Of a stretch of DNA of 64,000 nucleotides, positions 6,050 to 48,500 are shown in pieces (position 1 is the stretch's first letter; every line of letters begins with the position of its first letter). The notes beneath the pieces were generated by a model. It ran no database searches. It was not told the DNA's origin and worked only from the letters and a program-made list of their open reading frames with translations. The DNA lies in assembly GCA_051362555.1 (NCBI GenBank), contig CM120645.1, forward strand, positions 9,982,001 to 10,046,000, given 5' to 3'. This DNA is from Lingula anatina. Taxonomy: Eukaryota; Animalia; Brachiopoda. The position numbers were made by a program, and so were the translations under genes.

Positions 6050-6100
<51 letters not shown>

Positions 6101-8939: not shown

Positions 8940-8971
<32 letters not shown>

Positions 8972-8996
8972 CACACACACACGAACACATGTACAT

Positions 8997-9028
<32 letters not shown>

Positions 9029-9870
9029 TAATATATGTCGAATCTGGGCAACAGTTTTGCCATATAGTTCTGAACCATGTATTATATCTCACATCTTTCC
9101 TGTATATTTCTAGGGTGGCTACAACCTCCACTCCATATCAGAAAGCATGGCTATGTGTACCAAGGTTCTCCTGGGAGGAACATGTCCGCCCCTGGGGTCT
9201 CTGGTACCTAAGACAATGGCCGTAGAGTCCATATGTAATGTGCTGGACACACACAAGAAGTACTGGAAGTGTCTTCAGTTTAGGGGTGAGGTTACTGGAT
9301 TTGATTTAATTGAGAAATTAAATAAAAAGTTTCTTTTCAATCATTTTGGTCTTTCTATGTGTTGATTTACTTTCTTCTCACCCATATTATTATTCAACAT
9401 TTTAAAAGCCATATGTCTTGTATTTCAGTTGATTTGTCTGTACATTTGACAGCTTTGCTGCCTTGTTAAAGCCATATATCCTGTGTTTCAGTTGATTTAC
9501 CTGCCCCAGTTAACCCAGTGACAGCAGGTGTCCAGAACAATGCTGTGACCAGTACCTCAGATATGGACAGTATTACCACGGCCATTGGAGCTCTACAAGG
9601 TATAGTGTGGTCTATCTGAACTCACTTTTTGTTTGTGTGAATATTTATTTTGTTAGATGCCTGCAAAGAGATGGCAATCGGAATATTTTAACAAAAATTT
9701 TCTCCATTTTTTATGTACTTGTATTTTAGTCCTGTTACTTCCATGATCTCATTTTTAGGATCAAGGCTTCGTGTTTTCTCGTTGTTTATCTTGTCTGTTA
9801 AGTACTTTATTAATGTGTAAAGAAATAGATTAAGCTTGTATTGTTTCCTCTTTCAAAAGCAATAAATAGC

Positions 9871-9902
<32 letters not shown>

Positions 9903-21400: not shown

Positions 21401-22100
21401 ATCGGGTCAGTGTATAAATTATTCTGTTGACTTAATATGTTATTTTAAAGACTAGTACTTCAGGTACTTTTCTGAGGCCTGCAAAACAACATGGCCCCGT
21501 AGAATTTCTGTAGAATCTCCACACGATTCCCGATGATATTTCTATTGGGTTTTTGTCCCACAGAATTCCCATAGAGGTGCCGTAGAACAGATGGAATTCC
21601 ATAAGCCGACAAGAAATTTTAGTTAAGGTTTCAAAGTAGTCGGGACCTCAACCAAAACACCAACAGACCATCCTAAACACATTAGGCCTACGAAATAAAA
21701 TGAAATGGGATAAAATAAAGCGCCATCTTTCATTGGCCTACATAATAAAAGATTTATGCACATTAATTAAGGTTATCAAAATAAAAAGGTGAATAAATTT
21801 ATTAATTAATGTGAGGAATATATTGTGCATGTAATAAGAAAATGAAGGTGTTTTATAAAAACACGAAAAGAGCGTCCTATTAAAGCCCAGTGAGCGCCAC
21901 ACGCTCTAAGAACAACAGTATTCTGAGCACGTGCCACGTAGACCTACTGGTGAGGCAGCGTTCGGTACGTACCTGTTTCTTGCCTCCAGAACAACGATGT
22001 CTCGGATGCCTGCACTGATCAAGACGTCTGCCGCGGACAGTCCTGCCATCCCCGCTCCTACGATGATAACCCTGTACTTACCGACGCCAGTGGAATCCAT
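18430..22100 (-). CDS. FAD-dependent polyamine oxidase (spermine oxidase / N1-acetylpolyamine oxidase family), 3 exons, 471 aa
   Basis: Exons 22100-21973, 21009-20863 and 19570-18430 splice in phase. Motifs: VIIVGAGMAGLSAA (FAD binding), LEARNRVGGRIHT, ELGANYIHG, VTVPLGYLK, DKLFL, W..D.YTLGSY, LLFAGEAT..STMHGARNSGIREAERI. SMOX versus PAOX orthology cannot be resolved by eye. Confidence 0.93.
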
Positions 22101-22273
22101 ATTTGTTGCCACTGGGGAGCTGGGTTTTATGTCAAATACGGTAGCTATATTATATTGGCTGGTTAAGCGGCGGTGAATGCCGCGATATATTGACTGGAGT
22201 GTGGGTCGAGTCATGTCAGGTCAAGAGATGGCGGATTGTGTTATCCAAGGCCAATATCTAGATGCCATACCAG

Positions 22274-28426: not shown

Positions 28427-29517
28427 TTAGTTTGTTTCCATATCATTTTCCTCCCTCTGTGGAATCTGTGGTGGCTTGTAAATACAAGCTTTTATCTGAT
28501 GTAGTGAAGGGTGGATCCTAGAAACAATGCTTCTCTGCACATTAAACGGTTCCAAAACTGAACCAACTACAATTCCAATGATACACATTTGGCCATTAAG
28601 CAATTTCACAAACACCGCAGATCCAGAGTCCCCTTTCTGAGAAAATGGCTTATCATGTGTGGCATAAACATTTATCATATTTTTAAATCTTTCACTATGA
28701 CCAGATGTCTTATCCACAAAGGTAATCTCTCTGCAACAAGCAACCCCAAGGCCGAGTTTTCCCTCTGTCCACCCAGTGGTTTTTCCATATTTGTATGCCA
28801 AGGCATGCTCAGGAAGCAGATCTACGTGTCTAGTAACCACATCATTGAACGTTTCAAGTGATTCTAATGGAAATAAGTTGCCTTTGGCATTCTTATGCAA
28901 TTGCACGAGTGCTATGTCTACACCACATTTAATCACATTGCCATCCCCATCATCATGTTCAACATTACCTACATAGCATTTGCTAACAATGCCACATCTT
29001 TTAAAATTGTTTTCAACAAAAACAGGAGTGCCAATTACTGTTTCAGGACGTCTATCATAAGGGCAAAATACATGGGAACATGTAACAAATGCCTTTGGCC
29101 TGGTTGAGGCATGGTTACCCTCATCTTTCTCCACAAATAAACCAAGACTACCAGATTTATCAGAACCTACAGCACTTCCAATATACAACTCACAATGATC
29201 ATCTCTGTTTCCTTCATTGTCAGCATGAAGTACAAATGTTCCTTGCCTGACTTCAACTGGATATTCCTGAAGTTTTTTTGGAAAGTCTGAAATATTAGTC
29301 ATGTCACTGCAGTATATTGCAATGCAAGGACTGCTCTTTCCATCTTCATCTGCTTGTTCTCTTGAAAGAGAGATATCTATACACGAGATGTTGGAAAATT
29401 GATCAAATAGTTCATCACAATTCTTTTCGATGATAGCTCCCATTTTCTTCCTTTCATCACGGGAAATGAGCTCTCTTGTCATCATATCTAAGACTTCTTT
29501 CTCCACGGTTCTTTCAG
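28427..29517 (-). CDS. Terminal exon: Nal1/Ssy5-like trypsin-fold serine protease with N-terminal accessory domain
   Basis: GSLGLFV, FVTCSHV (His), VDIALVQL (Asp), [24 protein letters not shown] (Ser), IIGIVVG; upstream [21 protein letters not shown] resembles the Nal1-type N-domain. Confidence 0.88.
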
Positions 29518-32500
29518 CTATGAAGAAAGAATCAGAAATAAAGCAATATGACCAAGATAATATATACATTTAGATACAATGTTTAGCATTAAAATATAAT
29601 CAAAATTTACTTAATTGATACTTTGAAACGCTACAATATTTAGAAGAAATTTAGAGTAAAACAAAAATATGATTTGGTAGTTATGGGGCAAATGTCACCA
29701 ATATTGTGCAAAAAAACAGTCTGAGAATAATTACCATAAATGTAAACAGATCATGCTGACTTTAGAAAGCAACCTGCTTCTTTGCCAAACAAAGCCACTC
29801 AGCAAATTTAAAGTAAAACAAAATTATTGAAACCCAGGGGCAACACCAGGGCCAGAAACTTTCAAAATTCAGTTCTTGGTGAAAAGTGGCTCAATGGTCA
29901 ATTTCAAGGTCACTGTAAGATTGGCAGTAAATGACTTCCTATTCAAGTTCAAAAGTAACTAAGGACTTATCTCTAATTGTAACCCCTCACCATAACATGA
30001 GAGCTTAGGTCTGTGTAGTGTCTGAAAATTGGCACAAACAAAATTTTTTTGCAGAAAATTCCCATTTTTAGAACATTTTGGCCCTTTTGACCTTGAAATA
30101 AAAGTCAAAGTTCAAATCCAAGGGCATATTTGGAATCTCCACATATGACTGTTGGGCAGACTTCAAAATTCGAATCCCAACTCCACTAAAATTTCCAAAT
30201 TACCCATGAACATTATTTATGATTGGTCTATCAAACCCAAAAGTTTGACCTGTATTTTACATATGTTGATCAATCCTCAAAGTTTTACGACAGTAGGCTC
30301 CATCAGTTTTCCTTGAAATGCATACTTTTTGAAAAATAATTCAATCATGCAGATTTTCAAACAAGACCTATATTTTATCAATATTCATCAGTGCTGCAAT
30401 TTTAAAGAGGGGAAGAAAGCAGAAAATCCAACTCAAACACCACGGTATCAAGGAATTTTCAGCAAACAAAAACAGGAAATCAATGATTTAATAAGGCTTT
30501 TTAAAATTTATGTTTCATGAGCCTGTAGAGCTTCATGGTAATTTACCTTCAGTATCACTTGGTAATGTAGTGACAGGTGGAGTAACACCATGCTCCTGTA
30601 GAAAAAAAGAAACCCTGGTGATCAGATAGTTAGATTATTCATTTATTTACAAGACAAATGCAATTCACTAAGATACATTTAATATTTATGTACAAGTTAT
30701 GACTGAGCTATGCTTCCATTACATATTTTCATAACTTACCTTCTCACTTGTGCCTGGCATAAACCATAGTCTGTACACTGAATCCTCTGGCATCCCACAT
30801 TCTGTGAGATCAGTCTCTTTAGGATCTATTGCCATCAGTTCATCTCTGACCTTTGGCTTTCTTGGGTCTCTGACACACCATTCTAACTGCAAATGTGGGC
30901 AAACAGTCTGCTTAACTTGCTGAATTTGGTTTAAGACATGGTTCTTCCACTTCACATATGCCTCTCGGATTGTTCTGTCAAACTTTGTCCCTGTGGGATA
31001 TAAAGGGATCAGTTCAATGCAAGAGGATTTTGCTGACTTTCTCAAAGCACAACGTGCTCTTCTTCGTGGATCAATTGCAAAAACAGCATAATCATAATAC
31101 AGCTCATTTTGAATGAGAAAAAAGTCCCCTCTTCTTCTTAATCCTTTCCTACTTGAAGATGTGTCATTTTGGGCTAATTTTGATGTAAGCTGGTTGAAAA
31201 GCACATGTGGCATAAAGTTCTCTTTCCCTTGTATGAAAAGTGTTCCTTCACTGCCAACCAATTCCGGATTCTTGCATATCTGGAGTAAGCTGGGCACATA
31301 GAACTGTCGAAAAGTAGGCTTTTCTGCTGTACCTGGCTTGATGTCCTGTTGCAAAAGAATGTTGAATTGCACCATAACACCGATTAAAATGGGCTTCAAC
31401 TCACTGTCATCTCCCCAAAGCTCATCCAAAAGTCTTTCATCTAGGATGCCCCTCTTTAATGCAGACCAATATGGAGTCCCTTTGGTTTTGACATGGTGTT
31501 TATCAACTGCTATAATAGACCTGAATGCGTCTATCAGCCACAGTGGATTCAAAATGACTATGTCTGAGAGATCATCAGTCTGAAAGTGCATAAGATCTCC
31601 AATGTCATGATGGAACTGGAGGAATGACTTCAGCTCAATGGCATCCTGCATTCCAACTTTAAGAGCTAATTTTTGCAGCTCCTCATACTTTATCCACCTT
31701 TTTTCTCGTTTCTCAGGTGCTTGACGCAGCTGAAGATCTTCTTCTAATCTAATCCATCTTATTGGATTCTTCTCTCCCCAAGATTTTTGGCTTTCAGCAA
31801 TTTTCATAACATATCGACGGAGATCTGATATTTCTTGATCTTCATCTTGACATGTGTTGTCAATTGCAAAGAAACGAGGATCAACATGCACACCACTTTT
31901 CTTCTGTTGTATATGATGCCGCAATTTAGCAAAGTACGCATTTATTTCTTCTTCATGCTATAAGAGAATGGGAGAAACAGTTTTTCAACACATTGTAAGC
32001 TGCAATCACATATTCTATCAATCATCATAATTGCTTTTTTTCAGAACAGTTTAAATTTTTTTTATTTTTTGTTTCAGTAATTATGCCTACCTTTTCTTTG
32101 GGAACATTTTCCAGGAATTTGTCTTTATGCGTGCAAGCGATGATTATTCGGGGAGACAATACCCCATCTTCACTTAGGTTTTGCTGTGGTGCATAAGTAT
32201 GGATTATGTCTATCCAATAATAAGTGAAGTCTGGAAATATATCAGACAAAATTCAAAATGTACTTTAGTAACATTTTTTTTGCTGTTTGAACTGTTTGAG
32301 TACAGAAAGATGTCTGGTTATATGATAACTTTTTAATATTCTTAAGGCAAAATATATTATTCATATTTAGCAAAAATATTTACTTGTAAGAGCAAATTCT
32401 GGACAAGGATGCATTGTGATGAGCACCACACCTAGACCAGTGCACCTTCACAGGGGCGGATTTAGGCCGTCTTCTAGGTCTTACAGAAGACGGTCAGATT

Positions 32501-35500
32501 ATTAAGTTTACTTTGACGGGTATCTTATATTTTCTGTCAGAAGACGGTCAAAAACTGAGGACGAATTAACAAAGATAATTTGGAAGACTGTAAGAAAATA
32601 TCTCTGGATCCGCCCCTGCTTCAGATAACAAAATTTACATGGATTGAGTTGAGATCATATGTGGCCTATATCCAAGAGATGGGTACACAGGCCCTTGAAG
32701 TCTAGGAGGACAAGTGGTGATGGTGTATGGCAGCAAATACAGCGGATATGGTGGACAAGATGGGACGGGGCTAAAACCACGTGTTCCGGCAGTGTTTACA
32801 CTGGTGTTACAATTATAGTTGACATTTCATAACTGCTAGCTGGTATTTAACAACATAATTGGTAGTGAAATGATTTTATAAACATAAAAGCCCTTTCCGT
32901 TAAAACGCTTGTAATGAGCCATGAATTTCATACTGCTCTTAAATTTCAAAAATCTTAAAATTAATTTTGACCAGTAAGCAGTTTTGCGGGATCTTGATTT
33001 TCCTGAATCTCACACACCTTAAAATCAGCAATTGAGCTATTTTTGTGCTCAAAAAGCCCTAGCCTGCATTTACCCAAGTGCTGTGTGGCCCAAGGTGCAA
33101 GATAACGATCGGTACAGTTAGCTTTGGATGCTAAACAACATTGTCATCACAATTCATTAAGATAACAAGAGAATCTATAAAGAGTTGCACTGTCACTCTG
33201 TCGTTTCTTAACCGGAGTACTTGGCGTGAGATAGCAATCGGTAGTTTTTCTGAGGCGCACATTAGCATTGCCAACAGTAGGGACTTCAGTAACAGAACAA
33301 AAGAAGCAATTAACAGCTGCAATTAAGATTACCATTATTGCTTTCTTGTCTCACTCAGATTGTTCACGATCTCCTGCTGAACATCCCCCGCTAATGAAAT
33401 CCCTTGAACAAATATGAAAACTGCCTTCTCATTTCGATCTCCTGCTGATGATCTTCCGCTAACAAAGTCCCCTAAACAAATATAAAAATTGCCTTCTAGC
33501 ATGGACAAAATTTCCAAGCTTCTAGGCTTGCTTGGATCGATGAAGATCTCCTGCTGATGAATACAGCAACAAAGTCCCTTGAACTAGTATGGAAATTGCC
33601 TTATCGTCACGCTCAGATCGCTCACGATCTCCCTTGACGAACTTCCAGTCCCTTGAACGAATATGAAAATGGCCTTTCTGTCTCATTAGGTGTACCAAGA
33701 TTCTTTTCAAAAATCAAGACAAGTTTCTGGCTGATAGAATGACTTTCAAAAAAATTACACTACTGATAACAATGCTGTTTTGCATCCCTAGCCAACAGTA
33801 CCGCTCATTATCTAGCACCTTGGGCCGTACGTGTATCCCTTGGGTTGCAAATACTGACACTCACCCATCATACATTATGGTAACTGTAAATAGATCATTG
33901 GGGGAAGATAACATAAGGTCTAGCGACAAACAGACAACTTCTGGTCAAAATTGACAGAATTCCATGAAATTGAAATGCTTGGAAGTTCTGAGCACCTCCA
34001 TTTCATGAATTTCGACCAAAATAATCTTTTCCCAAATTTAATTATTTTTTACTTTACAAAATTCATGGCACATTAGCGTATATACTCACTAGCTGACAAA
34101 CAGTTGTGAGCTGGTGGGTGTCTTACCAAGAATAGTTCCTGAGAAGTGTTCAGCTCCTTGCCATTGGTCATCTAGCCTGTCTGTTAAAGCAAGGCTCATA
34201 TCAATGGCAAGAATGTAAATAGCTCTGGAAGAAAGGAATGTGTGGTGGGTGTTGTAATACACACTTTGCCCTCCAAAATCCCAGACTGCTAGACGAGCTG
34301 GTGGATTTTCAATGTCGTACGAGCTTTCTGTCAAATGTTTTAAGACATCAGGCGGGAGCTCCAAAGCCTCCTTGGAACTACTAGGGCTGGGCTGATGTTC
34401 TTAAAATATAAATGAACAAAGTTCACATGTTTCAGTATTAAAAAAGATTAAAGACAAATTTAATCATTTAAATGTATGAACTACAGTATAAAGCTAGAGG
34501 GTTGTACATGGTGATGGCTTGATCATTTAATCAGAAAAATAATTTTGGAATAACTAAAAATTACTAAGTAAATAAAGCATTTTGGTGCTTTTACTGTATA
34601 AAATGGTCTGCTTTTCAATTGTGCTGCTACCACTCAATAGGAATGTACGAAGTTAATGAATTTATAACATAAAAAACAGAATCTTTTAAATTCACAATTT
34701 TCCCTTTTTGAAATGATCAAGCCATTAAATTATGCAATAACATGCTTTGCTAAAGTGGGTGAGACACATTTAGGATAAAACATTTTGCCACCTTTCCTTT
34801 ACCAATTTTTACATAGTTGACAAGGAATTTTAACATAATATGTAGCACATAGAGACACCCAGTATAATACTGCATGGTGTATTCGTTGTCTTGTGTTATT
34901 GTCATACTAATTTTGATCAAGGGAAAATGGACCACCTGCCGCACTGTGCATCCTAATCTGATATTGCATAATGATGGAAGTTAATTATAAGTTAAGAAAA
35001 TTGTAACAAATGTTTAAATTTGAAAGAACCTACTGTACCCCTTTCCTTCTCATGTTATACTAAAATTTGTCCTTCCATTTCATCTTCGAGTCTTAGAAAA
35101 ACTTACCATAAAAAAAGAAATAAACACCATGATATGCCATTAAAGCAAATTGGAAAAAAATGGCATAACTTAAGAAATTTGCAAAAATGGTCTGATCATG
35201 CTGATCTATGAACTTCACCTGTATTTTTGTAAGATTTATCACTCCTGTGAGTTTCAAGACAATATGCCTATCGGTTTTCTTGAAATGTGTTATAAGTGAC
35301 ACATAAATGCTGAAAAAAGGCCCAACATGCTGATTGTTGACCTTGACTTGTATTTAAGGAATATTCATCAGTTCAGTAAGTATGAAGACAAAGGGTGAAT
35401 TCCCAGAGTTTTAGATTGATCCAGAGATTTAGGCTTCGTTCACATGCAATGTCTATTTTCTAAATTCTATTTTCTCGCGCTATCTTATGATCACGGTCTG

Positions 35501-38500
35501 TGCCCTGAATATCCCGCCGCGTAATTACTAGCAGCGCGAGCCAGTTACTTATAGTAACTTATAGTAACTGGCTCGCGTTGCCAGTAATTACGCCGCTGCC
35601 AGTAATTACGATATTCAGTGCACAGACCGTGATCATAAGACATACCGCGAATAGAAAATAGAATTTAGAAAATAGACATTGCATGTGAATGAAGCCTTAG
35701 ATTTAGATGGACCTAACTCCCTGGGGGTTCACGCTAAATTGCAGTCAGCCGAGCGCACACCCCTACAGCTTTAAGTAGGCGGGACAGACGCTTAAGCTGG
35801 CTAAGCTAGTGAGACTCTCCACAGGGACAGATCGATCTAAAATCTATGGAAATGGGGTCAAAAGGTGAAAATGTGAAATGTTTTTCCACTTATCGTGGTA
35901 CTATATATCACTGATATATGCAGTTATATTTCTGCTAGATAAATCTGTCTGCCAGCTGAAAACAAAAGTGGATGGCCTTGGAGAAATATTAGTTTAGATG
36001 ATGTTGGGTGCTACCACTGTGCTCCTATATTTTGTTCATAGTGATCAATACCATCTTTATCTGAACAGACGGGCTTCTTTGTTAGGCACAAGCAGGCAAG
36101 GACAAATGTGAACAAAAATTGACTCTCATCTCTCATAAGACCTCATGTTGATGAAGGACATGATGTTATTTCAGCCAGTTACATGCACACAGCTTTGTCT
36201 TCATCTGGAGTTATCAGACTGCCATGCAGCTGTTGTGGAAAATAGGGAAAGGTGCACAGTCAATTTGAATTTTCACTGTATAAGTGACAGGTCCTATGTC
36301 AGCTGCCTTAAGCCATGATAGTGTTCCAGTTGGTTGAGGACTGAAGCAAGTTGGAGGATAAAGAGATTCTCTAGTCAAGTCATTTCTTCTCAGTGAATTT
36401 AAGAAACGAATTACATCAGAAAAGAAAAAAGATCCAACTGCTGCCTTTCAAGAAATGTTGAATAAAAAACAAACATGAAACTGTTCAACAAGGATGCTTG
36501 GCTGAATGTTCATCAAACCATTGGTTATTTTTTCATGTTTAAATATTATAATGAAGAAGCAAAGAAGAATGCCCTCTAGAGGCAAACATTAAAGAAACAG
36601 ATCAAGGAAATGTTAGGTTTATGAAAAGACAAATATACATAATAGGCTTTTTTAGTTTAACTTAATTCTGTGGCCACATAAATTCTAGATATTTTAGCAC
36701 AGTGTCATTCTGCTAAGAGCAGATTATAAATAAGTCAATTTTTTTCATTGGGTTTTTTAAAACTTGTGATGATGTATATAATGTACATATAAGATGTGTA
36801 GAATGTGACCCTGTATAAGTATTTGCACTAGAAGTTTTCAGTCGAGTGAATGGCTGTTGTCTTTTTAATTTCTCATAGTTGATCATGGTGCCTTTTTATT
36901 TTTTAAATCATAATAAACATATATTTTTTCTTTTAAAGCAATTAAGTTTTCTTTGAACAAGAGATGGAAATATTTAAACAAGGCAGCAAAGCTGTCAAAT
37001 GTACAGACAAAAGACAGGAAATAACTATGCACAAAATAGGCTACTGTCAATTCTGATGCTAAAGTACATTATGTTAAACTGCAAATTCAACATCAAATTT
37101 TAATTATGCTCAACAGGTAATACCAATGTAAGTAAAATGTGTAACAAGTTCACACTTTGAAAATATATAACTTCCAGAAAAAGAAGCCAATTAGACTGCT
37201 TTTCCAACTCATAAGTAACATGGCAATCATAAGTAACATGGTTTTCCCATGATGGTCATCATGGCAGCAGCACCCAAAATTGTGTTTTCTTCTATTCTGA
37301 TGCAATATTACATAATGGTTAACAGCATAATGACTGTCAATTTTTAATAATAAAATATACGTATCATGGATTTTCAGAAAAAATGACTAGCATGGGTCTT
37401 CAAGCCCGTGGAACTTCAAATTCACACCATGAAAATGCCAATATGTGAAAAATTAAATTTTCACAAAAAAAAAAAAAACGTTTTACTGGCAGTAAGAATT
37501 ACCAAACAGACTGCATTGCCTACTGAAGCTGTATTTTAGTCCCATGTTTCTTTCCTGTAAGTTTGAGAACAGTAAGTGACATGGTTTTTCTTAAATGGTC
37601 ATCATGGGAGCAGTGCCCAAAATAGTTTTTTTTTTTAAATTTTGATGCAATATTACATAATGTTTAACAGCAAAATGACCATCAATTTTAATAATAAAAT
37701 ATTAGTATTATGGATATTCAGAAAATGTGACTAGCAAAGGTCTTCAGGCCCTTGGAACTTCAAAGTCACAACTTGAAAATGCCAAAATGTAAACAAGACA
37801 GCAATGTTCTGAAATGTTTTTTTTTCCAGTTTTAACAATTTCTAACATAAAACAAAATTAACAGTTTACTATCGTTTTTATATGATCAACTAAGAAAATT
37901 GATGAAATGGGAAAAATATTAATAGAGCAGTGTTAAATGTCCAATTTCTTCCATTCTGAGATTCTGAACATAGTGAATGATTGAATCTGACAAACTGCAA
38001 TGATATGAGTTTATTTCCATTTTTGAAACTTTATTACACAATACACATTAAAAAGTTTACCATTATTTTTACATAATCAAATAATGATGTTGTAAAGATG
38101 CAGGAAATGCCAAACAAACACTTTTACGTATCTTATTAATTAAAAATTGAAACTGTTAACATGCCTAAGAATTTAATCTGAGGAAATGTGAAAAAACGGC
38201 ATTTCTTTAAAATAATGGCCCGATTATGCTGATTTTCGAACTCAACCTGCGTTTTAGTAAGATTGACCACTCCTGTGAGTTTAATGACAATTGGCCTATC
38301 TGTTTTTCTTATATTGTGTTTACAGTGTTGCATATATGCTGAAAAATGAAAAAACAGCATAACTACTAAAATAGTGGCCCGATCATGCGGATTTTCGAAC
38401 TTGACCTGCGTTTTAGTAAGATTGATTACTCCTGTGAGTTTCATGACAACTGGCCTAACGGTTTTCCTTAAAATGTGTTTACAGGGTTGCATATATGCTG

Positions 38501-41289
38501 AAAAGTGAAAAAACAGCATAACTTCTACAATAATGGCCCGATCATGCTGTTTTTTTAACTTGACCTGCGTTTTATGAATATTCATCAGCTCTGTAAATAT
38601 AAAGCCAAAAAGTAAAACTGCCCTCCACTTATCGTGTTTGAAGGAAAGTGCATGGCGACGGCATCGGCGACGGCGCCGACAGACGCAGGTGATGGCAATA
38701 TGTACAGACACATCTGTGTCTGTACATAAAAACAAACATCATTTAAATTGCATCTGAATTGAGTGTTTCAATAAAACAATAAGTTAAACTTGAAAAGTCC
38801 ATAATATGATCTGGGCTCCATCTTTTGGGGACAGGGAAACTGGGTCCCTTGCTACTAACCTCCCAAACAAATTGTGGACCTTTTATATTTATTTTATTTT
38901 TATTTTTTTGTAACCCAAACTTATCGGAGAGTTGAAATCTAACCCATTTAATAAGTGGTAAGACCACAGTTCAAATGTACCCCGTATTTGAGAGTTTGAA
39001 ATGGATGAAGTATGGCACTTTGTACAGAATCTTAATGGGGGTGCTAATATTACACAACCAAGGTAGCATTATGCAACAGTCATAGGGCTCATTCCTGATA
39101 AAACTTTTGTTCTAGGTAGACCTATCCAACTCCAGGGGTACTCTGGCTGAATGCTATCAGATATACACCCACCTACAGGTACAGTACTTGCATTGAGTAG
39201 AATACAGAAAAGATGGTGATGGTAAGAATGCATAGGAAACAAGAAGAGACGTGATAGTCTGTTAACCTGATTGCACTCAGCAAGAGTACCCGTGGGGTTG
39301 GATTGATCAAGGTAGAATGAAAGCATCATTGAGAATGTGCCCATAGCACTGGCTAGCCCATATTTTTTACATTTTTACCACATTTTGAGAGGTATCCAAT
39401 TTTTCACACATTTCCTTGAGTGGCCCCAGCTTAAAGATCACTATGTCCAAGTTTAAAAGTCTTCAAATTACTTAAAGGGATAATAACTCTTCATATGAGA
39501 TCTGTATTTCACAGTAAAAACATTGTGAATAACTCATGGAAATATAATATATTCTGTTTTACCACAAAAATGGCAGTTATAGCTATTATTCTGATTTCTG
39601 AGCTTGTCTTTAGACCACGTGACCTCCACTGATGGCTATACTCTGTTAAAATCTCTTAAGAGATTTTAACAAAAAACCAAGCTTTTTAGAAAAAAACCAG
39701 GGACTAACTTTGAATGTAAAAATGGATTCATTAACCATTGGTTAGTATGGAAAAATTGTTGTTTACTCTAGGAAAATTCATTTTTTAGCCGAAACGAAGA
39801 GCTTTAATCCCTTTAAATAAACATATGTTGAAATTTTTTAAATACATTTGTTATGTTTATTTGGGGAAACACTTCTTATTATAGTAACAAATTCCACTGG
39901 ATGAAGTGCATTCCACCTGCATAGGCAGTGAGGAAAGACAAAAAGTAGGTCAAAAATCTCTATTTTCTAGGGCATATATCTCCCAACCCATAAAAGGTGC
40001 AGTAATATTTTTTTTTAAATTGATAAAACTATTAGTATATCCTTTGTTGATAATCGTGCCAAGTTTCATGAGTCTCCCCCCCGATCCCATATTTTTGCCA
40101 AGAATGGATATTTTTTCATTTTACTTCACAGAAGCTTATAACTTCTTAGGACACATCTTCACACCAATTTGGTTGAATTTCTCGTTAAATGGCACTTAAT
40201 TAGCTCATTTAATATTCATGTGACCGGGTCATTATGTCATCAACGGAAATTTCAACTCTTTACATTAAGACCCTGGTATCTGAACGAGGGAATGAAACTA
40301 CATGCTTGCTGTGGTTTCATTGTCCCGCGAGTCTGGAGGAAACAAAACAAGATTGGGTCATAACATCTGTGATTACATGCATGCTCAGATGACAGGATGT
40401 CTTTACACATTGTTGTTTAATAAAAAGCAGACTATTTCAGATGTTTAAATACTGAAAATGAAAAATTTGTTTAGATAGCTTTGTAATTAAGTTGAAAACA
40501 GAGTAAAGCACAACAACCCGTTTTCTTCACCCAGCAAAATTTGTGACAAAGTAATTTTTTTTCAAGTGTGTGGGTTAAATGATCCCTGATATGATGAAAA
40601 AAAACATGACAATACTTTACTGAGAGCTTTCTTTTCCGTAATGAATAGCTACAAAATGGCCTGGTATATCTGTCTCCCAGATTAAAGCGCTGTATTAGTG
40701 TCATTTTCCGCTAATAATTAAAAAGTTTAAAATACAATGTTTGGGAACACAAATTTGTTTGTTATAATATGACAAATCTAACACGTATAGGAATATTTTG
40801 ACAGACTTTCAAAGATGATAACCCCTTGCTGTTACCCAGTATTGTGGAAGTGCAGACATATATATATATATAATGTGATACTCACCTCCAAGCGAAAAAA
40901 ACAGCTTCTTTTCAAAATCAGTATCATTGCATCTGATATGAGTCAAGTGCCGCATATTTCTGGGTAAATCCTCAAGGGAGGCATCCAGCAGGATAGGGAC
41001 AACGATGTCTTCACTCATCTCGGCAGCATAATGCAGCGCCATATTTCTTTCCTGCTTGCACCAAGGACTTGTAAGAAAGTCCTTGGAAAGAAAACAAATG
41101 ATGTACGTGCATTTTTCGAGGGCTTCATTAATACAAGTCACTGTTGAAGTACCTGGGCGGAAATCTCGTTTTGAGTAGCAGCAGCTGACTCCCCTTTTCT
41201 CCAATGTGTCCATGACACTTTCCACAAATTCAGCATCAACATTACTGTGGGCCAAAAATGCATCATACTTGTCTTTGTAAAGTACTTGC
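28427..41289 (-). CDS. Multidomain Roco-family protein: TIR - ROC (G3-G5) - COR - Nal1/Ssy5-like trypsin-fold serine protease (5'-partial, about 1057 aa)
   Basis: Exons 41289-40886, 34399-34127, 32230-32091, 31957-30740, 30595-30547 and 29517-28427 all have AG/GT boundaries and matching phases (1,1,0,0,1), giving one open frame to the stop at 28427. The TIR-to-ROC junction spans a 6.5-kb intron and is the least certain link. Confidence 0.8.
30740..31957 (-). CDS. Exon encoding ROC G5 region and COR domain
   Basis: FFAIDN (G5), [63 protein letters not shown] are typical COR motifs. Confidence 0.9.
32091..32230 (-). CDS. Exon encoding ROC G4
   Basis: YWIDIIH...[11 protein letters not shown] matches the ROC G4 consensus P.IIVGTH.D. 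Confidence 0.88.
32400..32815 (+). mobile_element. Degenerate 3' end of HINE family B with a 168-bp TIR mini-element inserted (32451-32618)
   Basis: Homologous to 48958-49209 (CCACACCTAGACC, GAGTTGAGAT, ATCCAAGAGATGGGTAC, TCTAGGAGGA). The insert has TIR CAGGGGCGGAT/ATCCGCCCCTG with CTTCA on both flanks. Another family B fragment lies at about 29860-30150. Confidence 0.75.
34127..34399 (-). CDS. Exon encoding ROC G3/switch II
   Basis: [33 protein letters not shown] is the ROC hallmark WDF.GQ..YY.TH..FL...A.Y.L..D. Confidence 0.92.
35432..35696. mobile_element. Hairpin MITE (PIF/Harbinger-like) with TTA target duplication, nested in an older MITE
   Basis: GGCTTCGTTCACATGCAATGTCTATTTTCTAAATTCTATTTTC.. 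is inverted at the right end; TTA at 35429-35431 and 35697-35699. Confidence 0.88.
36977..38730 (+). mobile_element. HINE family A element
   Basis: Starts AACAAGGCAGCAAAGCTGTCAAATGTACAGACA; ends with (GACGGC)n plus ATGTACAGACACATCTGTGTCTGTACAT hairpin; about 160-bp internal repeats. Confidence 0.85.
40886..41289 (-). CDS. Exon encoding a TIR domain (TIR_2-like)
   Basis: KYDAFLAHS (box 1), [10 protein letters not shown] (BB loop), [28 protein letters not shown] (alphaC Glu), [17 protein letters not shown]. Confidence 0.93.
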
Positions 41290-41998
41290 CTGGAATGAAA
41301 AATATCACTTCTTTATTATGAGGCCCATAATTTAGTGTGAATAAATAGCTTGATGACATATAGTTTAATAGATAGGATAAGATAGAGAAGCATTACAGCA
41401 TTGGAAAAGGAGACATTTTCAGGTGTGCAAATTTTGTGAGCATAACGACTGATGGAACCTCTGACTACACCGAGGAAGTATAAGAATCGATGTCCATGGG
41501 GCTATGGAATGTCTTATGGTAATGGGTAAGTAATATTTTACTTTTCAAGTGTAAGGGAATGTTTGTTGTTTGGGAAAAAAAAACAGCTTGTATAGTCTGT
41601 AAGGATAAATGCCTGTTAACTTGGGAAAAGTACATAAAGTTAATATTTTGTATTGTTATATTATATAGGGTCACCTGAGTCAGCTACAGGACGTGACATA
41701 TGTTCATTGTTATTGCATTAACAGTTATGTTCAGACGTTAAAGTTTATTATAAGCAATATCACCAGCCCTCTCAGTGAATATATGGTAATTCTCTATCTT
41801 AAACAGAGGACTTATTAAACTCAATTCTGGAATCTTGGCTTTAAAAACTTTGATGAAGAAGAGGGAGAAATGGAAGAGGTAAATGTCCTTGTATTTTTTT
41901 TTTTTTTTGAAAAATCAGTAAAAAAAAAATTACAATAATGGCACAAATTAGTAAGATGTATATTAAAAACATTACAAAAATAGTGAATTGAACATATA

Positions 41999-44900
41999 AA
42001 CAAGGCAGCAAAGCTGTCAAATGTACAGACAAAAAAACAGAAAAAAAAGATGCAAAATAGGTCATTTTGATTCAATAATAAATGCTTATAATAGCAGTCA
42101 GTCAACACTGATTTTTAATCATGCACAACAGGTAACATGGTCAATAACAGGAGCAGATTCAGAGATATTTTCTGACAGTATTCCAAAGTATCTTTGTTGA
42201 TCCATCCTCCATTTTGATAGTCTTCCAACAGAAACCCATTAATATAAACTTTAAAATCTGGCTGTCTTCCAGGAGACCCAGAAGATGGTCTCAATCCACC
42301 CTTTCAATAAGATTACAATGTCAGGACCATGAGAGTTAAAATTCACATGATGAAAGTCCCTATATATGAAAAATGATGACAGTGCATAAAATAATATTAC
42401 AGCGTGTTTAAAGACATAAATACCAATACAGCTGCTTATGTGGAAATACTGAAAATGTGCAGAGCCTCAGGTGGATGGGAGCTAAAAATCACATCTTAAA
42501 AATGCCAGTGTTGGAGAAAAAATGAAATAGAAACAACAAAAATATAATTCCAATGAAGCTGTTATTCACTGCTTCCTTATTATGGACACTATGTTATCTA
42601 GCAGAGAGCTTAACAGGGAAATATCAACAAGTGTGCTTTATGAAATTTCAATTAATGGCTACTTAATTAGGTAAATGAGTTTATAGCACTGAAATTAGCC
42701 TTGTGAATACCAAAGGGGAATTAACAGACTGACCACACAAATTTGTCTATCAAAGGTCTTCAGGCCCATAAGTCACACCTTAAGAAAAGCAGAAAACAAT
42801 AATGCACAAAAACAGGAGACTGCCCAATTCTGATGCAATAATACATTATGTTTAACTGCACAGTCAACATAAAATTTTAATTATGTACAACAGGTAACGC
42901 TGATGAAAGTAAAAGCATAAGGCTCCAGGCCCATCAGAGTTCAAGTTTTCAATTAGAAAGTGCCAGAATGAGAAAAATGAAAATTTCACAAAAAATGCAT
43001 AAATTTAATAAAAATGATAACCCAATTGACCTGGCTTTCTAATTTTAACTGCATGCCAATCCTAAAAATCATACTTATAAGTTAAATATAATAATAAGTA
43101 ACACAGTTTTCTTTTCGTAATGTTTGCAGTAGCAGTGCAAAAAGATTATTGTCAATTTTGATGTAACATTACATAATAAATTATAGAATAATTATCACCA
43201 ATTTTTGATTATTGACTATAAATAGCATGGACATGTAGAAAATTTGATTACCATTAGGCTTCATGTCCATGGGAGCTCCGAGTCCCACAATGAATATGCC
43301 AAAAAGATAATGAATATTTCACTAAGTGTATAACTTCCAGAAAAAGAAGCCAATTAGACTGCTTTTCCAACTCGGGCTGCATTTTAGTCCTGTGTTTCTT
43401 TTTTGAAAGATTGACAGTAATAAGTAACACGGTTTTCCCATAATGGTCATCATGGCAGCAGCACCAAATATTGTGTTTTCTTCTATTTTGATGCAACATT
43501 ACATAATGATTAACAGCATAATGACCATCAATTTTTAATGATAAAATATACGTGTCATGGATTTTCAGAAAATGTGACCAGCAAGGGTCTTCAAGCCCAT
43601 GGAGGTTCTAAGTCGCACCTTGAAAATGTCAATAAGTGAAAAATTAAATTTTCACAAAAAACTGTTAAATTGCCAGAAAAATTTACCAAACAGACTGCAT
43701 TGCCTACTGAAGCTGTATTTTAGTCCCATGTTTCTTTCCTATAAGTTTGAGAACAGTAAGTGACATGATTTTCCTTAAATGGTCATCATGGGAGCAGTGC
43801 CCAAAATAGGGGTTTCTTCAAATTTTGATGCAACATTACATAATGTTTAACAGCATAATGACCATCAATTTTTAATTATAAAATATTAGTATCACGGATA
43901 TTCAGAAAATGTAACTAGCAAAAGTCTTCAGGCCCATGGAACTTCAAAGTCACATACTGAAAATGCCAAAATGTAAACAAGACAGCACTGTTCTGAAATG
44001 GGTTTATTTCCATTTTTAACACTTTTTTAACATAAAACAAAATAAACAGTTTACTGCCATTTTTATAAGACCAATGAAGAAAATTGATGAGATGGGAAAA
44101 GTATCAATAGAACAGTGTTAAATGTTCAACTTCCTCCATTCTGAGATTCTGAACATAGTGGATGAATGCATCTGACAAACTGCAATGATATGAGTTTATT
44201 TCCATTTTTGACACTTTATTACACAATACATGATAACAAGTTTACCATCACTTTTACAAAATCAACTAACAATGTTGTAAAGATGTAGGAAATGTCAAAC
44301 ACTTTTACGTATCTTATTAGTTCAATAATGAGACTGTTAACATGCCTTAGAATTGAATGTAAGGAAATGTGAAAAAACAGCATGACTTCTAAAATAATGA
44401 ACTGATTATGCTGATTTTCAAACTCAACCTGCGTTTTAGTAAGATTGGCCCCTCCTGTGAGTATAATGACAATTGGCCTAACTGTTTTTCTTATATTGTG
44501 TTATCAGTGTTGCATATATACTGAAAAAAGTGAAAAAACAGCATAAATTCCCTATAAGTGACCCGATCGTGCTGATTTTCGAACTTGACCTGCGTATTAT
44601 GAATATTTATCAGTTCTGTAAGTTTCAAGCCAAAAGGTAAAATGGTTTTCCAATTATCGTGTTATCGGTGCTGCATATATGCTGAAAAAAAGAGAAAAAA
44701 TAGCCTAAATTCACTAAAAATGACCCAATCACGCTGATTTTCGAACTTGACCTGCGTATTATGTATATTCATCAGTTCTGTAAGTTTCAAGCCAAAAGGT
44801 AAAATGGTTTTCCACTTATCGTGTTATCGGTGCTGCATATATGCTTAAAAAAGTGAAAAAACAGCATAAATTCCCTATAAGTGACCCGATCATGCTGATT

Positions 44901-45460
44901 TTCGAACTCGACCTGCGTATTATGAATATTCATCAGTTCTGTAAGTTTCAAACAAAAAGAAAAAACAGTTTTCCACTTATTGTGTTATCGGTAAAAGTGC
45001 ACGGCGACGGCGACGACGGCAACGACAGCGACGACAGACGCAGATGACGGCTATATGTACAGACACATCTGTGTCTGTACATAAAAACAGCATAACTTCC
45101 CTAAAAATGGCCTGATCATGCTGAATTTCGAACTTGACCTGCGTATTATGAATATTCATCAGTTTTATAAGTTTCAAGCCAAAAAGTAAAACGGTTTTCC
45201 ACTTATCGTGTTATCAGTGCTGCATATATGCTGAAAAAAGTGAAAAAACAGCATAACTTCCCTAAAAATGACCCGATCATGCTGATTTTCGAACTTGACC
45301 TGCGGATTATGAATATTCATCAGTTCTGTAAATTTGAATACAAAATGTAAAACGGTATTCCACTTATCGTGTTATCACTGAGTGCACGGCGACGGCGACG
45401 GCGACGACAAACGCAGGTGACGGCTATATGTACAGACACATCTGTGTCTGTACATAAAAA
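41999..45460 (+). mobile_element. Long HINE family A element with duplicated 3' end
   Basis: Same termini as other family A copies; microsatellite plus hairpin occurs twice (about 45001-45085 and 45385-45460). Confidence 0.85.
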
Positions 45461-45535: not shown

Positions 45536-48500
45536 AACTAGAGGATCAGAGAGGCGATACCGCCTCCGAATATTGTACCACCAGCTGGAGCAAGCGCATT
45601 CGTATAGACCCCCACATACACAAAGTAAGGGACACAGCCACCAGTCTTGTGCTTGACAAGCTGTAAAAATGCAATCAACAAGAATTTTCAAAATATGCAA
45701 AAAATATATATAATTTAAAATGGTACAATCAAAGTTAATTCATCGTAAGGTAGGTCAAAGGTCAATTTCAAGGTCACAGTAAATTGCCAGTATATGACTT
45801 CCTTTTCAAGTTTAATAGTAACTATGGACCTATCTCTGCCAGTTTTGGAGATAAAAGGGAATCAAAATTTGCAAAGTTCAGTTCATGGTGAAAAGTAGGT
45901 CAAAGGTCAATTTCAAGGTCACAGTAAGATTGCCAGTATATGACTTCCTATTCAACTTCAATAGTAACTATGGACCTATCTCTGCCAGTTTTGGAGATAA
46001 AATAGAAGCAAAATTTACAAAGTTCAGTTCATGGTGAAAAGTAGGTCAAAGGTCAATTTCAAGGTCACAGTAAGATTGCCAGTATATGACTTCCTATTCA
46101 ACTTCAATAGTAACTATGGACCTATCTCTGCCAGTTTTGGAGATATAAGGGACTAAATGTTATAATTTTGGAGTTACCATAATGTGCCATAAATTTCCTA
46201 CAGAAAAAATTAATTAAAATAAAGAAAAGGTAATTTTGGTCAAAATTCTTGAAATGGGAAGTGTCTTGAAGTTCGAGATGTTCAAATTTGATGATATAAT
46301 GTCATTTTTGACCATGAGTTGTCTGCTTTGCCAAGCCTTATGTTTTATTTTTCTGGAGTTCAAAATTTATTATCCATTACTGTACTGCGCATTTTGCTTT
46401 CACCACCAATATATACTTTTTGATACAGCGTAACTTTGGAGATAGAAGGGAAGCAAAATTTGCAAGTTCAGTTCATGGTGGAAAGTAGGTCAAAGGTCAA
46501 TTTTAAGGTCACATTTAGATTGCCAGTATATGACTTCCTATTCAACTTCAATAGTAACTATGGACCTATCTCTGCCAGTTTTGGAGATAAAAGGGAAGCA
46601 AAATTTACAAAGTTCAGTTTATGGTGAAAAGTAGGTCAAAGGTCAATTTTAAGGACACAGTAAGATTGCCAGTATATGACTTCCTATTCAACTTCAATAG
46701 TAACTATGGACATATCTCTGCCAGTTTTGGAGATAAAAGGGAAGCAAAATTTGCAAAGTTCAGTTCATAGTGAAAAGTAGGTCAAAGATCAATTTAAAGA
46801 TCACAGTAAGATTGCCAGTATATGACTTCCTATTCAACTTCAATAGTAACTATGGACCTATCTCTGCCAGTTTTGGAGATATAAGGGACTAAATGTTATA
46901 ATTTTGGAGTTACCATAATGTGCCATAAATTTCCTACAGAAAAAAATAATTAAAATAAAGAAAAGGTCATTTTGGTCAAAATTCTTGAAATGGGAGGTGC
47001 TCTGAAGTTCGAGTTGTTCAAATTTGATGAAATAATGTTATTTTTTTTTTACCATGAGTTGTCTGCTTCGCCAAGCCTTATGTTTTATTTTTCTGGAGTT
47101 CAAAATTTATTATCCATTACCGTACTGCACATTTTGCTTTCACCACCAATATGTACTTTTTGATACAGCGTAACTTTGGAGATAAAAGGGAAGCAAAATT
47201 TGCAAAGTTCAGTTCATGGTGAAAAGTAGGTAAAAGGTCAATTTTAAGGTCACATTTAGATTGCCAGTATATGACTTCCTATTCAAGTTCTATAGTAATT
47301 ATGGACCTATCTCAGCCAGTGCTGGAGAAAAAAAGGGAAGCAAAATTTGCAAAGATCAGTTCATGGTGAAAAGTAGGTCAAAGGTCAATTTCAAGGTCAC
47401 AGTAAGATTGCCAGTATATGACTTCCTATTCAACTTCAATGGTAACTATCAACATATCTCTGCCAGTTTTGGAGATAAAAGGGAATCAAAATTTGCAAAG
47501 TTCAGTTCATGGTGAAAAGTAGGTCAAAGGTCAATTTCAAGGTCACAGTAAGATTGCCAGTATATGACTTCCTATTCAAGTTCAATAGTAACCATGGACA
47601 TATCTCTGCCAGGTTTGGAGATAAAAGGGAAGCAAAATTTGCAAAGTTCAGTTCATGGTAAAAAGTAGGTCAAAGGTCAATTTCAAGGTCACAGTAAGAT
47701 TGCCAGTATATGACTTCCTATTCAAGTTCAATAGTAACTATGGACCTATCTCTGCCAGTTTTGGAGATAAAAGGGAAGCAAAATTTGCAAAGTTCAGTTC
47801 ATGGTGAATAGTAGGTCAAAGGTCAATTTCAAGGTCACATTTAGATTGCCAGTATATGACTTCCTATTCAAGTTCAATAGTAACTATGGACCTATCTCTG
47901 CCAGTTTTGGAGATAAAAGGGAAGCAAAATTTGCAAAGTTCAGTTCATGGTGAAAAGTAGGTCAAAGGTCAATTTTAAGGACACATTTAGATTGCCAGTA
48001 TATGACTTCCTATTCAAGTTCAATAGTAACTATGGACATATCTCTGCCAGTTTTGTAGATAAAAGGGAAGCAAAATTTGCAAAGTTCAGTTCATAGTGAA
48101 AAGTAGGTCAAAGGTCAATTTCAAGGTCACAGTAAGATTGCCAGTATATGACTTCCTATTCAACTTCAATAGTAACTATGGACCTATCTCTGCCAGTTTT
48201 GGAGATATAAGGGACTAAATGTTATAATTTTGGAGTTACCATAATGTGCCATAAATTTCCTACAGAAAAAAATTAATTAAAATAAAGAAAAGGTAATTTT
48301 GGTCAAAATTCTTGAAATGGGAGGTGCTCTGAAGTTCCAGAAGTTCAAATTTGATGAAATAATGTTATTTTTGACCATGAGTTGTCTGCTTTGCCAAGCC
48401 TTATATATATTTTTTTCTGGAGTTCAAAATTTATTATCCATTACCGTACTGCACATTTTGCTTTCACCACCAATATGTACTTTTTGATACAGCGTAACTC

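What the first reader, a model, noticed from the sequence alone, without database searches (positions are those of the whole stretch)
28427..41289. TIR-ROC-COR-serine protease fusion: a candidate animal immune sensor/effector of apparently undescribed architecture
Seen: six minus-strand exons splice in phase into one ORF with a TIR domain, ROC G3 (WDFGGQ), G4 (CTHKD) and G5 (FAIDN), a full COR domain, a 49-nt linker exon, and a trypsin-fold protease with intact His/Asp/Ser (TCSHV, DIAL, GDSGS). Known: characterised animal Roco proteins (LRRK1/2, DAPK1, MFHAS1) pair ROC-COR with kinase, death or LRR domains, not proteases; COR mediates dimerisation; TIR and trypsin-like proteases are recurrent effectors in prokaryotic defence systems. 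Inference: a nucleotide- or oligomerisation-gated protease, with the protease in the position the kinase holds in LRRK2 and TIR as adaptor or NADase. I do not know a described protein with this architecture but could not search.
Basis: partly seen in the sequence, partly recalled or inferred. Interest (0 to 1): 0.92.

Follow-up and report, generated by a model that had tools for sequence, protein, structure and literature searches.

The report
Brachiopod Roco-derived scaffold with NAL1 protease
Six exons of an animal gene, likely from a Lingula brachiopod, join in frame into a protein with an immune-type TIR domain, the rear half of an LRRK2-like GTP switch, its partner COR domain and an intact protease built like rice NAL1; it likely acts as a protease switched on by clustering, but the GTP-binding loop is absent from this window and the TIR join is untested.

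Summary
The six exons are real: all joins are GT-AG and in phase, giving 1,058 residues without a stop. TIR, ROC motifs G3-G5, a full COR and a His-Asp-Ser protease are confirmed. The protease is NAL1-type (Z 26.6 over 304 residues).

Main correction: the ROC is half a GTPase. No P-loop (G1) or switch I (G2) lies anywhere in the window, although a paralog with a 90% identical COR has both. GTP gating is therefore unsupported as the gene stands.

The nearest relatives are Lingula anatina gene models with the same ROC-COR and linker but different ends (ZU5, another NAL1-type protease, or nothing). The two COR-linked proteases are not sisters (AU p 8e-36), so this join likely arose twice by exon shuffling. 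No relative shows the TIR join, and no RNA could be examined.

ROC-COR plus protease is already in print for bacteria, brown algae (peptidase) and a sponge (caspase); TIR plus ROC-COR for Aplysia. I found no paper on an animal ROC-COR with a NAL1-type protease. Verdict: new variant of a known kind; likely a clustering-activated immune protease.

The parts
40886..41289 (-). Exon 1 of the model: TIR domain, phase 1-1 exon, with BB-loop RDFRPG and helix-C WCKQE glutamate
   Evidence: Pfam TIR_2 E 1.8e-23; 77% identical to the TIR of Lingula XP_013406542, whose likeness starts and stops at this exon's ends; best PDB match oyster TIR-STING 6wt6 E 5e-15, glutamate aligned. Join to exon 2 inferred only.
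34127..34399 (-). Exon 2: end of the ROC insert and ROC G3 (WDFGGQ)
   Evidence: Pfam Roc E 3.6e-7, profile 53-98; 87-88 of 90 aligned residues identical to three paralog models, with a 9-residue deletion
32091..32230 (-). Exon 3: ROC G4 (CTHKD)
   Evidence: 38-41 of 46 residues identical to four paralog models
30740..31957 (-). Exon 4: ROC G5 (FAIDN) and full COR (A and B parts)
   Evidence: Pfam COR-A E 9e-20; model (pLDDT 72) matches the Chlorobium COR 3dpt over 320 columns, E 4e-11; 88-90% identical to Lingula paralogs
30547..30595 (-). Exon 5: 49-nt linker exon ending in a phase-1 donor, the apparent swap point for effector exons
   Evidence: 14 of 15 residues identical to XP_013396602 and 13 of 15 to XP_013388275, where ZU5 follows; strongest acceptor of the six
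28427..29517 (-). Exon 6 (last): NAL1-type serine protease; N-terminal alpha/beta domain about residues 16-96, double barrel about 108-348; His148 (29074-29072), Asp200 (28918-28916), Ser297 (28627-28625); ATTAAA at 28405
   Evidence: Model pLDDT 86; Foldseek ranks 1-34 shown are NAL1; Z 26.6, rmsd 3.9, 304 aligned, NAL1 90-452; family profile vs NAL1 E 8e-15; triad columns; poly(A)-like signal
41675..41699 (-). Weak candidate first exon (ATG, 8 codons, phase-1 donor) 385 nt upstream of the TIR exon
   Evidence: The only one of 5 phase-1 donors scoring 4 or more upstream of the TIR exon that has an in-frame ATG; no homology support; may be chance
30647..30721 (-). In-frame stop (30721-30719) and AATAAA/ATTAAA in the intron after the COR exon: possible short isoform ending at COR
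   Evidence: one paralog has both a read-through model (XP_023930899) and a spliced-on model

Best explanation
This is a gene likely assembled by recent exon shuffling in a Lingula-like brachiopod, in which a TIR exon is likely spliced to the rear half of a ROC domain, a full COR domain and an intact NAL1-type serine protease, and its product likely works as a clustering-activated immune protease rather than a GTP switch. Shown: the exons, frames, domains, catalytic triad and the absence of G1/G2 from the window. Inferred: (1) TIR-TIR contacts would recruit the protein to a receptor or adaptor platform; (2) COR would help pair the chains, as in other Roco proteins; (3) the crowded protease modules would form a NAL1-like ring in which each N-terminal domain packs on the next subunit's barrel; (4) the model lays residues 90-97 of one subunit in the neighbour's substrate cleft, so a cut near Leu96-Ala98 would unblock or release the catalytic part, much as an initiator caspase is activated by proximity; (5) the substrate is unknown. 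Odds of the parts: COR-protease join 0.85, TIR join 0.65, clustering-driven activation given the joins 0.7.
For: Frames and splice sites. Linker exon and phase-1 effector position shared with paralog models; XP_013401761 carries ROC-COR-linker-protease independently. Window COR is 88-90% identical to NHL- and ZU5-type paralogs but 75% to XP_013401761, while its protease is 52% identical to an LRR-protease model and groups with it and an ankyrin-protease (support 98 and 99), not with XP_013401761 (AU p 7.9e-36; 20 of 93 rows used). The protease family (93 hits) carries Pfam-recognised ankyrin (3), DUF4559 (2), DED, ubiquitin, nSTAND3 and OTU partners in 9 of 91 scanned, plus LRR and COR in the two found earlier. 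His-Asp-Ser intact in the window and in 58 of 75 relatives with letters at all three columns. NAL1 needs assembly for activity and trimerises through its N-terminal domain packing on the next protease domain (PMC12012508). Three copies of residues 15-345 scored 0.55 against a best control of 0.12, runs agreeing in at least 72% of contacts, pLDDT at least 73; the mark was reached by 21 of 30 solved microbial homo-pairs and 0 of 23 single chains, and on eukaryotes by 17 of 29 but only 1 of 7 without an older solved relative, so the pass may come from likeness to NAL1. No G1/G2 in 3,449 open stretches of the window, while a leave-one-out profile finds the paralog's G1 at E 6.7e-16. None of the other exons of the TIR paralog lies in the window.
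Against: No transcript evidence was seen. No relative joins TIR to this ROC exon: the one longer TIR relative found (1 of 245 candidates) is TIR-coiled coil. The intron between TIR and G3 is 6.5 kb and its acceptor is the weakest of the six. The gene's start is not established and 81% of the 22.7 kb upstream is repeated DNA, so G1/G2 could lie beyond the window. The G3 exon is about 97% identical to paralogs, which fits a working GTPase as well as recent origin. An in-frame stop and AATAAA follow the COR exon. COR pairs are two-fold and NAL1 rings three-fold, so the two need not cooperate; NAL1 trimers are inactive and need an N-terminal strand for the active hexamer, which this exon lacks (alignment starts at NAL1 residue 90). 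82 of 91 scanned relatives show no credible Pfam partner domain. No evidence of immune induction was obtained.
Confidence: 0.5

Rival explanations
1. The gene is a complete GTP-gated Roco protease: its sensor and G1/G2 exons lie beyond position 64000, and the TIR exon is spliced into the long variable loop between G2 and G3, inside the GTPase.
For: In 12 relatives G1 and G3 are 77-216 residues apart, against about 47 in Ras (recalled), so this loop tolerates large inserts; the paralog XP_013403180 has G1 191 residues before G3; G3-G5 are intact; upstream DNA is repeat-rich like a long intron.
Against: Neither the G1/G2 region nor the insert residues seen in paralogs match anywhere in the 29.6 kb upstream of the G3 exon; the TIR paralog carries this TIR near its N-terminus; a possible short first exon lies 385 nt before the TIR exon.
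Confidence: 0.22
2. ROC-COR-protease is one gene whose 5' exons lie outside the window; the TIR exon is a stray shuffled copy, a skipped exon or part of another transcript.
For: No database protein shows the join; 6.5-kb intron with a weak acceptor.
Against: The TIR exon is open over 404 nt at 23% divergence from its paralog, has the best donor of the five, is on the same strand and in the matching phase, and no other partner exon was found between it and the G3 exon.
Confidence: 0.17
3. The locus is a young, unused or partly used chimera: transcripts stop after COR at 30719, and the protease exon is silent or belongs to a separate unit.
For: Stop and AATAAA in the intron; a paralog model ends this way; no database entry matches the window's own protein; lost P-loop.
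Against: The linker exon keeps strong sites and 14 of 15 residues; the protease exon starts at a phase-1 acceptor with no start of its own, and is intact at 48% divergence from its nearest relative.
Confidence: 0.11

Closest known systems
Bacterial AP-GTPase (ROC)-COR conflict systems with variable C-terminal effectors (Kaur et al. [quoted passage not shown]
   Same: Constant ROC-COR core; paralogs in one genome end in different effectors, among them TIR, caspase and trypsin
   Different: Those have N-terminal LRRs and a named AP-GTPase domain; here no LRR, TIR in front, G1/G2 absent from the window, modules are spliced exons, and the protease is NAL1-type. Only one fused COR-trypsin row appeared among the 17 'trypsin' places in that file.
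Brown-algal group 3 and other SAR ROCOs with a C-terminal peptidase IPR009003 (PMC11378527)
   Same: ROC-COR followed by a trypsin-fold peptidase in a eukaryote
   Different: LRR-ROC-COR core; described as an inherited SAR clade. Earlier scan notes call those peptidases HtrA-like (not checked here); this one is NAL1-type and a recent lineage-specific join.
Rice NARROW LEAF 1 (PDB 7y77, 8pmi, 8hau; PMC12012508)
   Same: N-terminal alpha/beta domain plus double barrel over 304 aligned residues; His-Asp-Ser; predicted N-domain-to-barrel ring contact
   Different: NAL1 is free-standing, with an N-terminal strand that builds the active hexamer; here that part is replaced by TIR-ROC-COR; about 17% identity; ATP site not shown
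Animal Roco proteins with protease or TIR partners: Amphimedon APGTPase+COR+DED+TRADD-N+caspase (PMC8195603 file 4), Owenia ROC-caspase (PMC11463336), Aplysia TIR + ROC-COR proteins (PMC9334734)
   Same: Animal ROC-COR tied to a protease or to TIR, in a proposed immune or cell-death role
   Different: Those proteases are caspases; none of the passages seen combines TIR, COR and a serine protease
LRRK1/LRRK2, DAPK1, MFHAS1 and Chlorobium Roco
   Same: COR fold and G3-G5
   Different: No kinase, no LRR, no P-loop in the window; protease after COR
Lingula anatina XP_013401761 (uncharacterised RefSeq model)
   Same: ROC G3-G5, COR, linker, protease of the same family
   Different: No TIR in the model (21.8-kb scaffold); its protease belongs to another subfamily (27% identity; monophyly rejected)

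Membership tests
Roco GTPases (ROC-COR) | G1 P-loop GxxxxGK[ST] | tested here: not met
   Absent from the model and from the whole window by motif scan, tblastn with the paralog's G1 region and a G1 profile with a working control; it could lie beyond position 64000
Roco GTPases (ROC-COR) | G2 switch I | tested here: not met
   Covered by the same tblastn query and profile; same caveat
Roco GTPases (ROC-COR) | G3, G4, G5 motifs | tested here: met
   WDFGG, THKD, FAIDN, as in paralogs and distant relatives; five-motif definition from PMC6337361
Roco GTPases (ROC-COR) | COR (both halves) directly after ROC | tested here: met
   Pfam COR-A; fold match to 3dpt over 320 columns
Roco GTPases (ROC-COR) | GTP binding, hydrolysis and COR-mediated dimer | not testable with these tools
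   Needs protein; dimer not modelled
NAL1-type serine proteases | N-terminal alpha/beta domain plus chymotrypsin double barrel | tested here: met
   Model residues 16-351 align to NAL1 90-452, Z 26.6, next family Z 19.4; Foldseek
NAL1-type serine proteases | His-Asp-Ser triad | tested here: met
   H148, D200, S297 in conserved columns
NAL1-type serine proteases | Pfam Nal1_C or Peptidase_S64 above cut-off | tested here: inconclusive
   Window exon: S64 E 0.031, no Nal1_C; 32 of 65 aligned relatives hit Nal1_C at E 0.05 or less; Atlas neighbours carry Nal1_C on 14-91% of members where listed
NAL1-type serine proteases | Ring through N-domain to barrel contacts | tested here: inconclusive
   Model supports it (0.55 vs control 0.12) but may echo the solved NAL1
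NAL1-type serine proteases | N-terminal strand that stacks two trimers (NAL1 residues 48-53) | tested here: not met
   Alignment begins at NAL1 residue 90; a plant NAL1 feature, so this is NAL1-like, not an orthologue
NAL1-type serine proteases | ATP bound in the N-terminal domain | not tested
   Residue-level match to NAL1 K139/D166 not obtained (one search did not align that part)
TIR domains (TLR/MyD88/TIR-STING type) | TIR profile above cut-off, BB-loop proline | tested here: met
TIR NADases | Helix-C glutamate | tested here: met
   Aligns with the glutamate of oyster TIR-STING, but also with that of a TLR TIR, so not diagnostic
TIR NADases | NAD+ cleavage | not testable with these tools
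   Needs an assay
Bacterial AP-GTPase-COR conflict systems | N-terminal LRR sensor | tested here: not met
   No LRR in the model; the 5' end is not established
Bacterial AP-GTPase-COR conflict systems | Paralogs with different effectors after COR | tested here: met
   ZU5 in three models plus an older model of a fourth gene, protease in one model and the window, a few residues only in one

The most novel reading that the evidence does not exclude
Brachiopods run a modular Roco immune toolkit in which a constant ROC-COR-linker core swaps phase-1 effector exons, and has captured a NAL1-type protease twice; in this gene a TIR exon has replaced the GTP-binding half of the switch (or sits inside it), making a TIR-recruited, self-cutting serine protease that does the job of an initiator caspase in an animal.
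Probability: 0.3. Interest if true: 0.8.

Novelty: new variant of a known kind. Interest (0 to 1): 0.6.

Why it matters
Animal cell-death and immune platforms are known to switch on caspases. A cytosolic serine protease of the NAL1 type wired directly to TIR and COR would be a second proteolytic output, and would show in an animal the swappable-effector logic so far described for bacterial ROC-COR systems. It also gives an LRRK2-like scaffold with a simple read-out (self-cleavage), and a natural test of what COR does without GTP. The wider protease family (Lingula and bivalves where named) appears unstudied.

Tried and rejected
No genome is held for the window and no sequencing runs could be listed, so the 5' end and all junctions stay untested by reads. 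A metagenome scan with the COR exon gave 67 pattern matches and no relative. Searches for G1/G2, for the paralogs' insert residues and for the TIR paralog's other exons in the window found nothing. A scan for further phase-1 internal exons above 34400 gave only a shorter TIR acceptor and one repeat-derived candidate. Single-sequence search of the protease against the PDB found nothing; the family profile was needed. A profile aimed at the N-terminal domain did not align NAL1's ATP-binding residues. An HtrA or extracellular trypsin reading was rejected: HtrA folds score Z 13-14.5 against 26.6 for NAL1, and no PDZ family was hit. A single origin of the two COR-protease joins was rejected. One tree row set: 22 of 93 rows were dropped for short coverage, and 20 rows were chosen by hand. 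An Atlas search with XP_013401761 did not complete. The paper that first described oyster TIR-STING was not found under the id I recalled. Earlier scan notes by sequence and place returned nothing.
Full report
1. Observation. The six minus-strand exons are as described. Joined by coordinate they give 1,058 residues with no internal stop; every intron is GT-AG and the phases are 1, 1, 0, 0, 1. Under a generic splice matrix recalled from memory the donors rank at the 97.7-99.9th percentile of 1,763 GT sites and the acceptors at the 85.0-99.8th percentile of 1,742 AG sites. Pfam confirms TIR_2 (E 1.8e-23), the second half of Roc (E 3.6e-7, profile 53-98) and COR-A (E 9e-20); the protease exon alone reaches only Peptidase_S64 at E 0.031. 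A model of exon 4 matches the whole Chlorobium COR over 320 columns, so COR is complete.

2. Source and relatives. No genome is held. The COR exon found 15 longer relatives among 3,809 candidates; the best four are Lingula anatina models at 90, 89, 88 and 75% identity, the rest 26-34% and, where named, from Mercenaria and Branchiostoma. The protease and TIR exons each found one longer relative, both Lingula (52% and 77%). The window is therefore likely Lingula or a close brachiopod; none of the hits is the window's own protein. The paralogs are predicted models, and I could not see what supports them.

3. The joins. Joins 2/3, 3/4 and 4/5 read the same in the paralog models. The 49-nt linker is 14 of 15 identical to a model in which ZU5 follows. 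XP_013401761 continues from its linker into a protease with the same three catalytic motifs, so COR-linker-protease has an independent precedent. The TIR join has none. In its favour: the exon is open, has the best donor, matches in phase and strand, its paralog's likeness starts and ends at the exon's borders, and no other exon of that paralog is in the window. Against: 6.5 kb of intron and the weakest acceptor. An in-frame stop and AATAAA follow the COR exon, and one paralog gene has both a read-through and a spliced model, so a short isoform is possible. No reads could be examined.

4. The missing half of the GTPase. A ROC has five motifs, G1 to G5 (PMC6337361, passages). The model has G3-G5 only. 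A motif scan found three GxxxxGK[ST] strings in the window, none in a ROC context; tblastn with residues 300-495 of XP_013403180 found no match better than E 0.89; a G1/G2 profile from 12 relatives found nothing better than E 4 in 3,449 open stretches, while the same profile built without XP_013403180 found that protein at E 6.7e-16. So within 29.6 kb upstream of the G3 exon there is no P-loop. Either the TIR replaced the 5' half of the gene, or the gene starts beyond the window and the TIR sits in the G2-G3 loop, which is long and variable in these proteins (G1 to G3 distance 77-216 residues in 12 relatives). The upstream 22.7 kb is 81% repeated DNA; one weak ATG mini-exon lies 385 nt before the TIR exon.

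5. The protease. A search of 1.84 billion representatives gave 93 hits at E 0.001 or less. Of 10 looked up, 9 are bivalve and 1 Lingula; two more are the Lingula proteins. A local ROC-COR profile found COR in 1 of the 93, XP_013401761. Pfam found ankyrin, DUF4559, DED, ubiquitin, nSTAND3 or OTU in 9 of the 91 newly found; one more hit is a long repeat protein that is probably spurious, and the rest show no partner domain. His is kept in 88 of 92 aligned rows, Asp in 73 (Glu in 16), Ser in 75 (gap in 15). A 65-row profile finds rice NAL1 at E 8e-15, far ahead of anything else. The model (pLDDT 86) aligns to NAL1 residues 90-452, that is its ATP-binding domain plus protease domain, at Z 26.6, rmsd 3.9, 304 residues; alpha-lytic-type proteases follow at 19.4 and HtrA at 13-14.5. 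The Atlas neighbours are Nal1_C-bearing clusters.

6. Mosaic origin. The window's COR sits with the 88-90% paralogs, XP_013401761 being the longest branch of that clade. Its protease groups with the LRR-protease XP_013395621 and the ankyrin-protease XP_013421641 (support 98 and 96 in a 71-row tree; 98 and 99 in a 20-row tree), while the protease of XP_013401761 groups with another protein at 65% identity. Forcing the two COR-linked proteases together is rejected (AU p 7.9e-36). The simplest reading is two separate captures of a phase-1 protease exon behind the linker exon.

7. How it likely works. NAL1 trimerises through its N-terminal domain packing on the next subunit's protease domain, and needs higher assembly for activity (PMC12012508, passages and section 5). 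Three copies of residues 15-345 of the window's protease scored 0.55 against a best control of 0.12 (agreement at least 72%, pLDDT at least 73); the mark was reached by 21 of 30 solved microbial homo-pairs and 0 of 23 single chains, and on eukaryotes by 17 of 29 but by only 1 of 7 without an older solved relative, so memory of NAL1 may explain the pass. In that model residues 16-48, 68-70 and 90-100 of one copy touch residues 146-149, 292-298 and 316-323 of the next, which include His148, Ser297 and the strand that binds substrates in this fold (established knowledge). I infer a blocked resting state and a cut in trans near Leu96-Ala98 on clustering. The TIR is closest to oyster TIR-STING, then TLR and MyD88 TIRs; it keeps the BB-loop proline and the helix-C glutamate. 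One preprint lists oyster TIR-STING among NADase-type TIRs (10.1101/2022.05.07.491051, passages), but a TLR TIR aligns a glutamate there too, so I favour recruitment over catalysis at about 3 to 1. COR would add pairing. The chain TIR recruitment, clustering, ring, self-cut, substrate cleavage is inference throughout. It is weakened by the mismatch of two-fold COR and three-fold ring, and by the lack of NAL1's hexamer strand.

8. What is known. Kaur et al. 2021 (PMC8195603; passages, section 15 whole, supplements searched by term, file 4 cut when stored, figures not seen) describe bacterial LRR-AP-GTPase-COR proteins with at least 24 C-terminal domains, among them TIR, caspase and trypsin, and list a sponge ROC-COR-caspase. 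Brown-algal group 3 and other SAR ROCOs end in a peptidase (PMC11378527, passages); that paper counts some forty animal domain combinations in a figure I could not see, which may include this one, and its one held supplement had no hit. Aplysia has TIR with ROC-COR (PMC9334734, passages) and Owenia a ROC-caspase (PMC11463336, passages). Ten library searches showed no paper on an animal ROC-COR with a serine protease or on animal NAL1-type proteases; I saw listings only for most hits, and subscription papers, including surveys of Lingula immune genes and of bivalve TIR proteins that I recall, are not held. Earlier scan notes pointed me to the brown-alga paper and describe NAL1-type fusions in a clam and an annelid; they are leads, not support.

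9. Verdict. Observation confirmed; interpretation partly supported. It is Roco-derived but fails the G1/G2 test within the window, so I do not file it as a working Roco GTPase. It is a new variant of a known design (ROC-COR plus swappable effector), notable for the protease type, the double origin and the TIR standing where the P-loop half should be. Interest 0.6; 0.8 if the clustering-activated protease reading is shown.

Noticed in passing
window 29302-29300 and 29254-29252 (protease residues 72 and 88): A lysine and an aspartate each kept in 85% of aligned relatives are Met and Glu here, and the family's KGxIP loop is shortened here and in XP_013395621. They may correspond to NAL1's ATP-binding K139 and D166; not shown.
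   Followed up: partly
P0003, P0004, P0019, P0020, P0021 (Lingula models): After the same linker these carry ZU5; by recall ZU5 is usually followed by UPA, a self-cleaving module in PIDD and NLRP1, which would make a second proteolytic output of this family.
   Followed up: no
P0003, P0004, P0005, P0018, P0021: Five of the six Lingula ROC-COR RefSeq models with a full COR lack G1 (only XP_013403180 has it), three on scaffolds over 470 kb: either cut models or a family that often lacks the P-loop.
   Followed up: partly
P0021 (XP_013396602): ROC-COR-ZU5 runs into an EXS membrane domain; probably two genes joined by the annotation.
   Followed up: no
window 18433-22220, minus strand: Neighbouring flavin amine oxidase gene (Pfam Amino_oxidase E 1e-47).
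   Followed up: partly
window about 6100-10200, plus strand: Exon pieces that read like a class IIb histone deacetylase (motif recalled; the open stretches tried gave no Pfam hit).
   Followed up: partly
window 41376-41477, plus strand: Short frame just upstream of the TIR exon resembling a hAT-transposase fragment (recalled likeness).
   Followed up: partly
window 45750-48214 and 59074-64000; 37160-38638, 42566-45087, 50992-52763, 55326-57836: A 146-bp satellite (16.8 and 33.8 copies), 159-161-bp arrays, and a 1.5-2.5-kb block present four times, once inside the TIR-G3 intron and three times upstream; such repeats could have driven the exon swap.
   Followed up: partly
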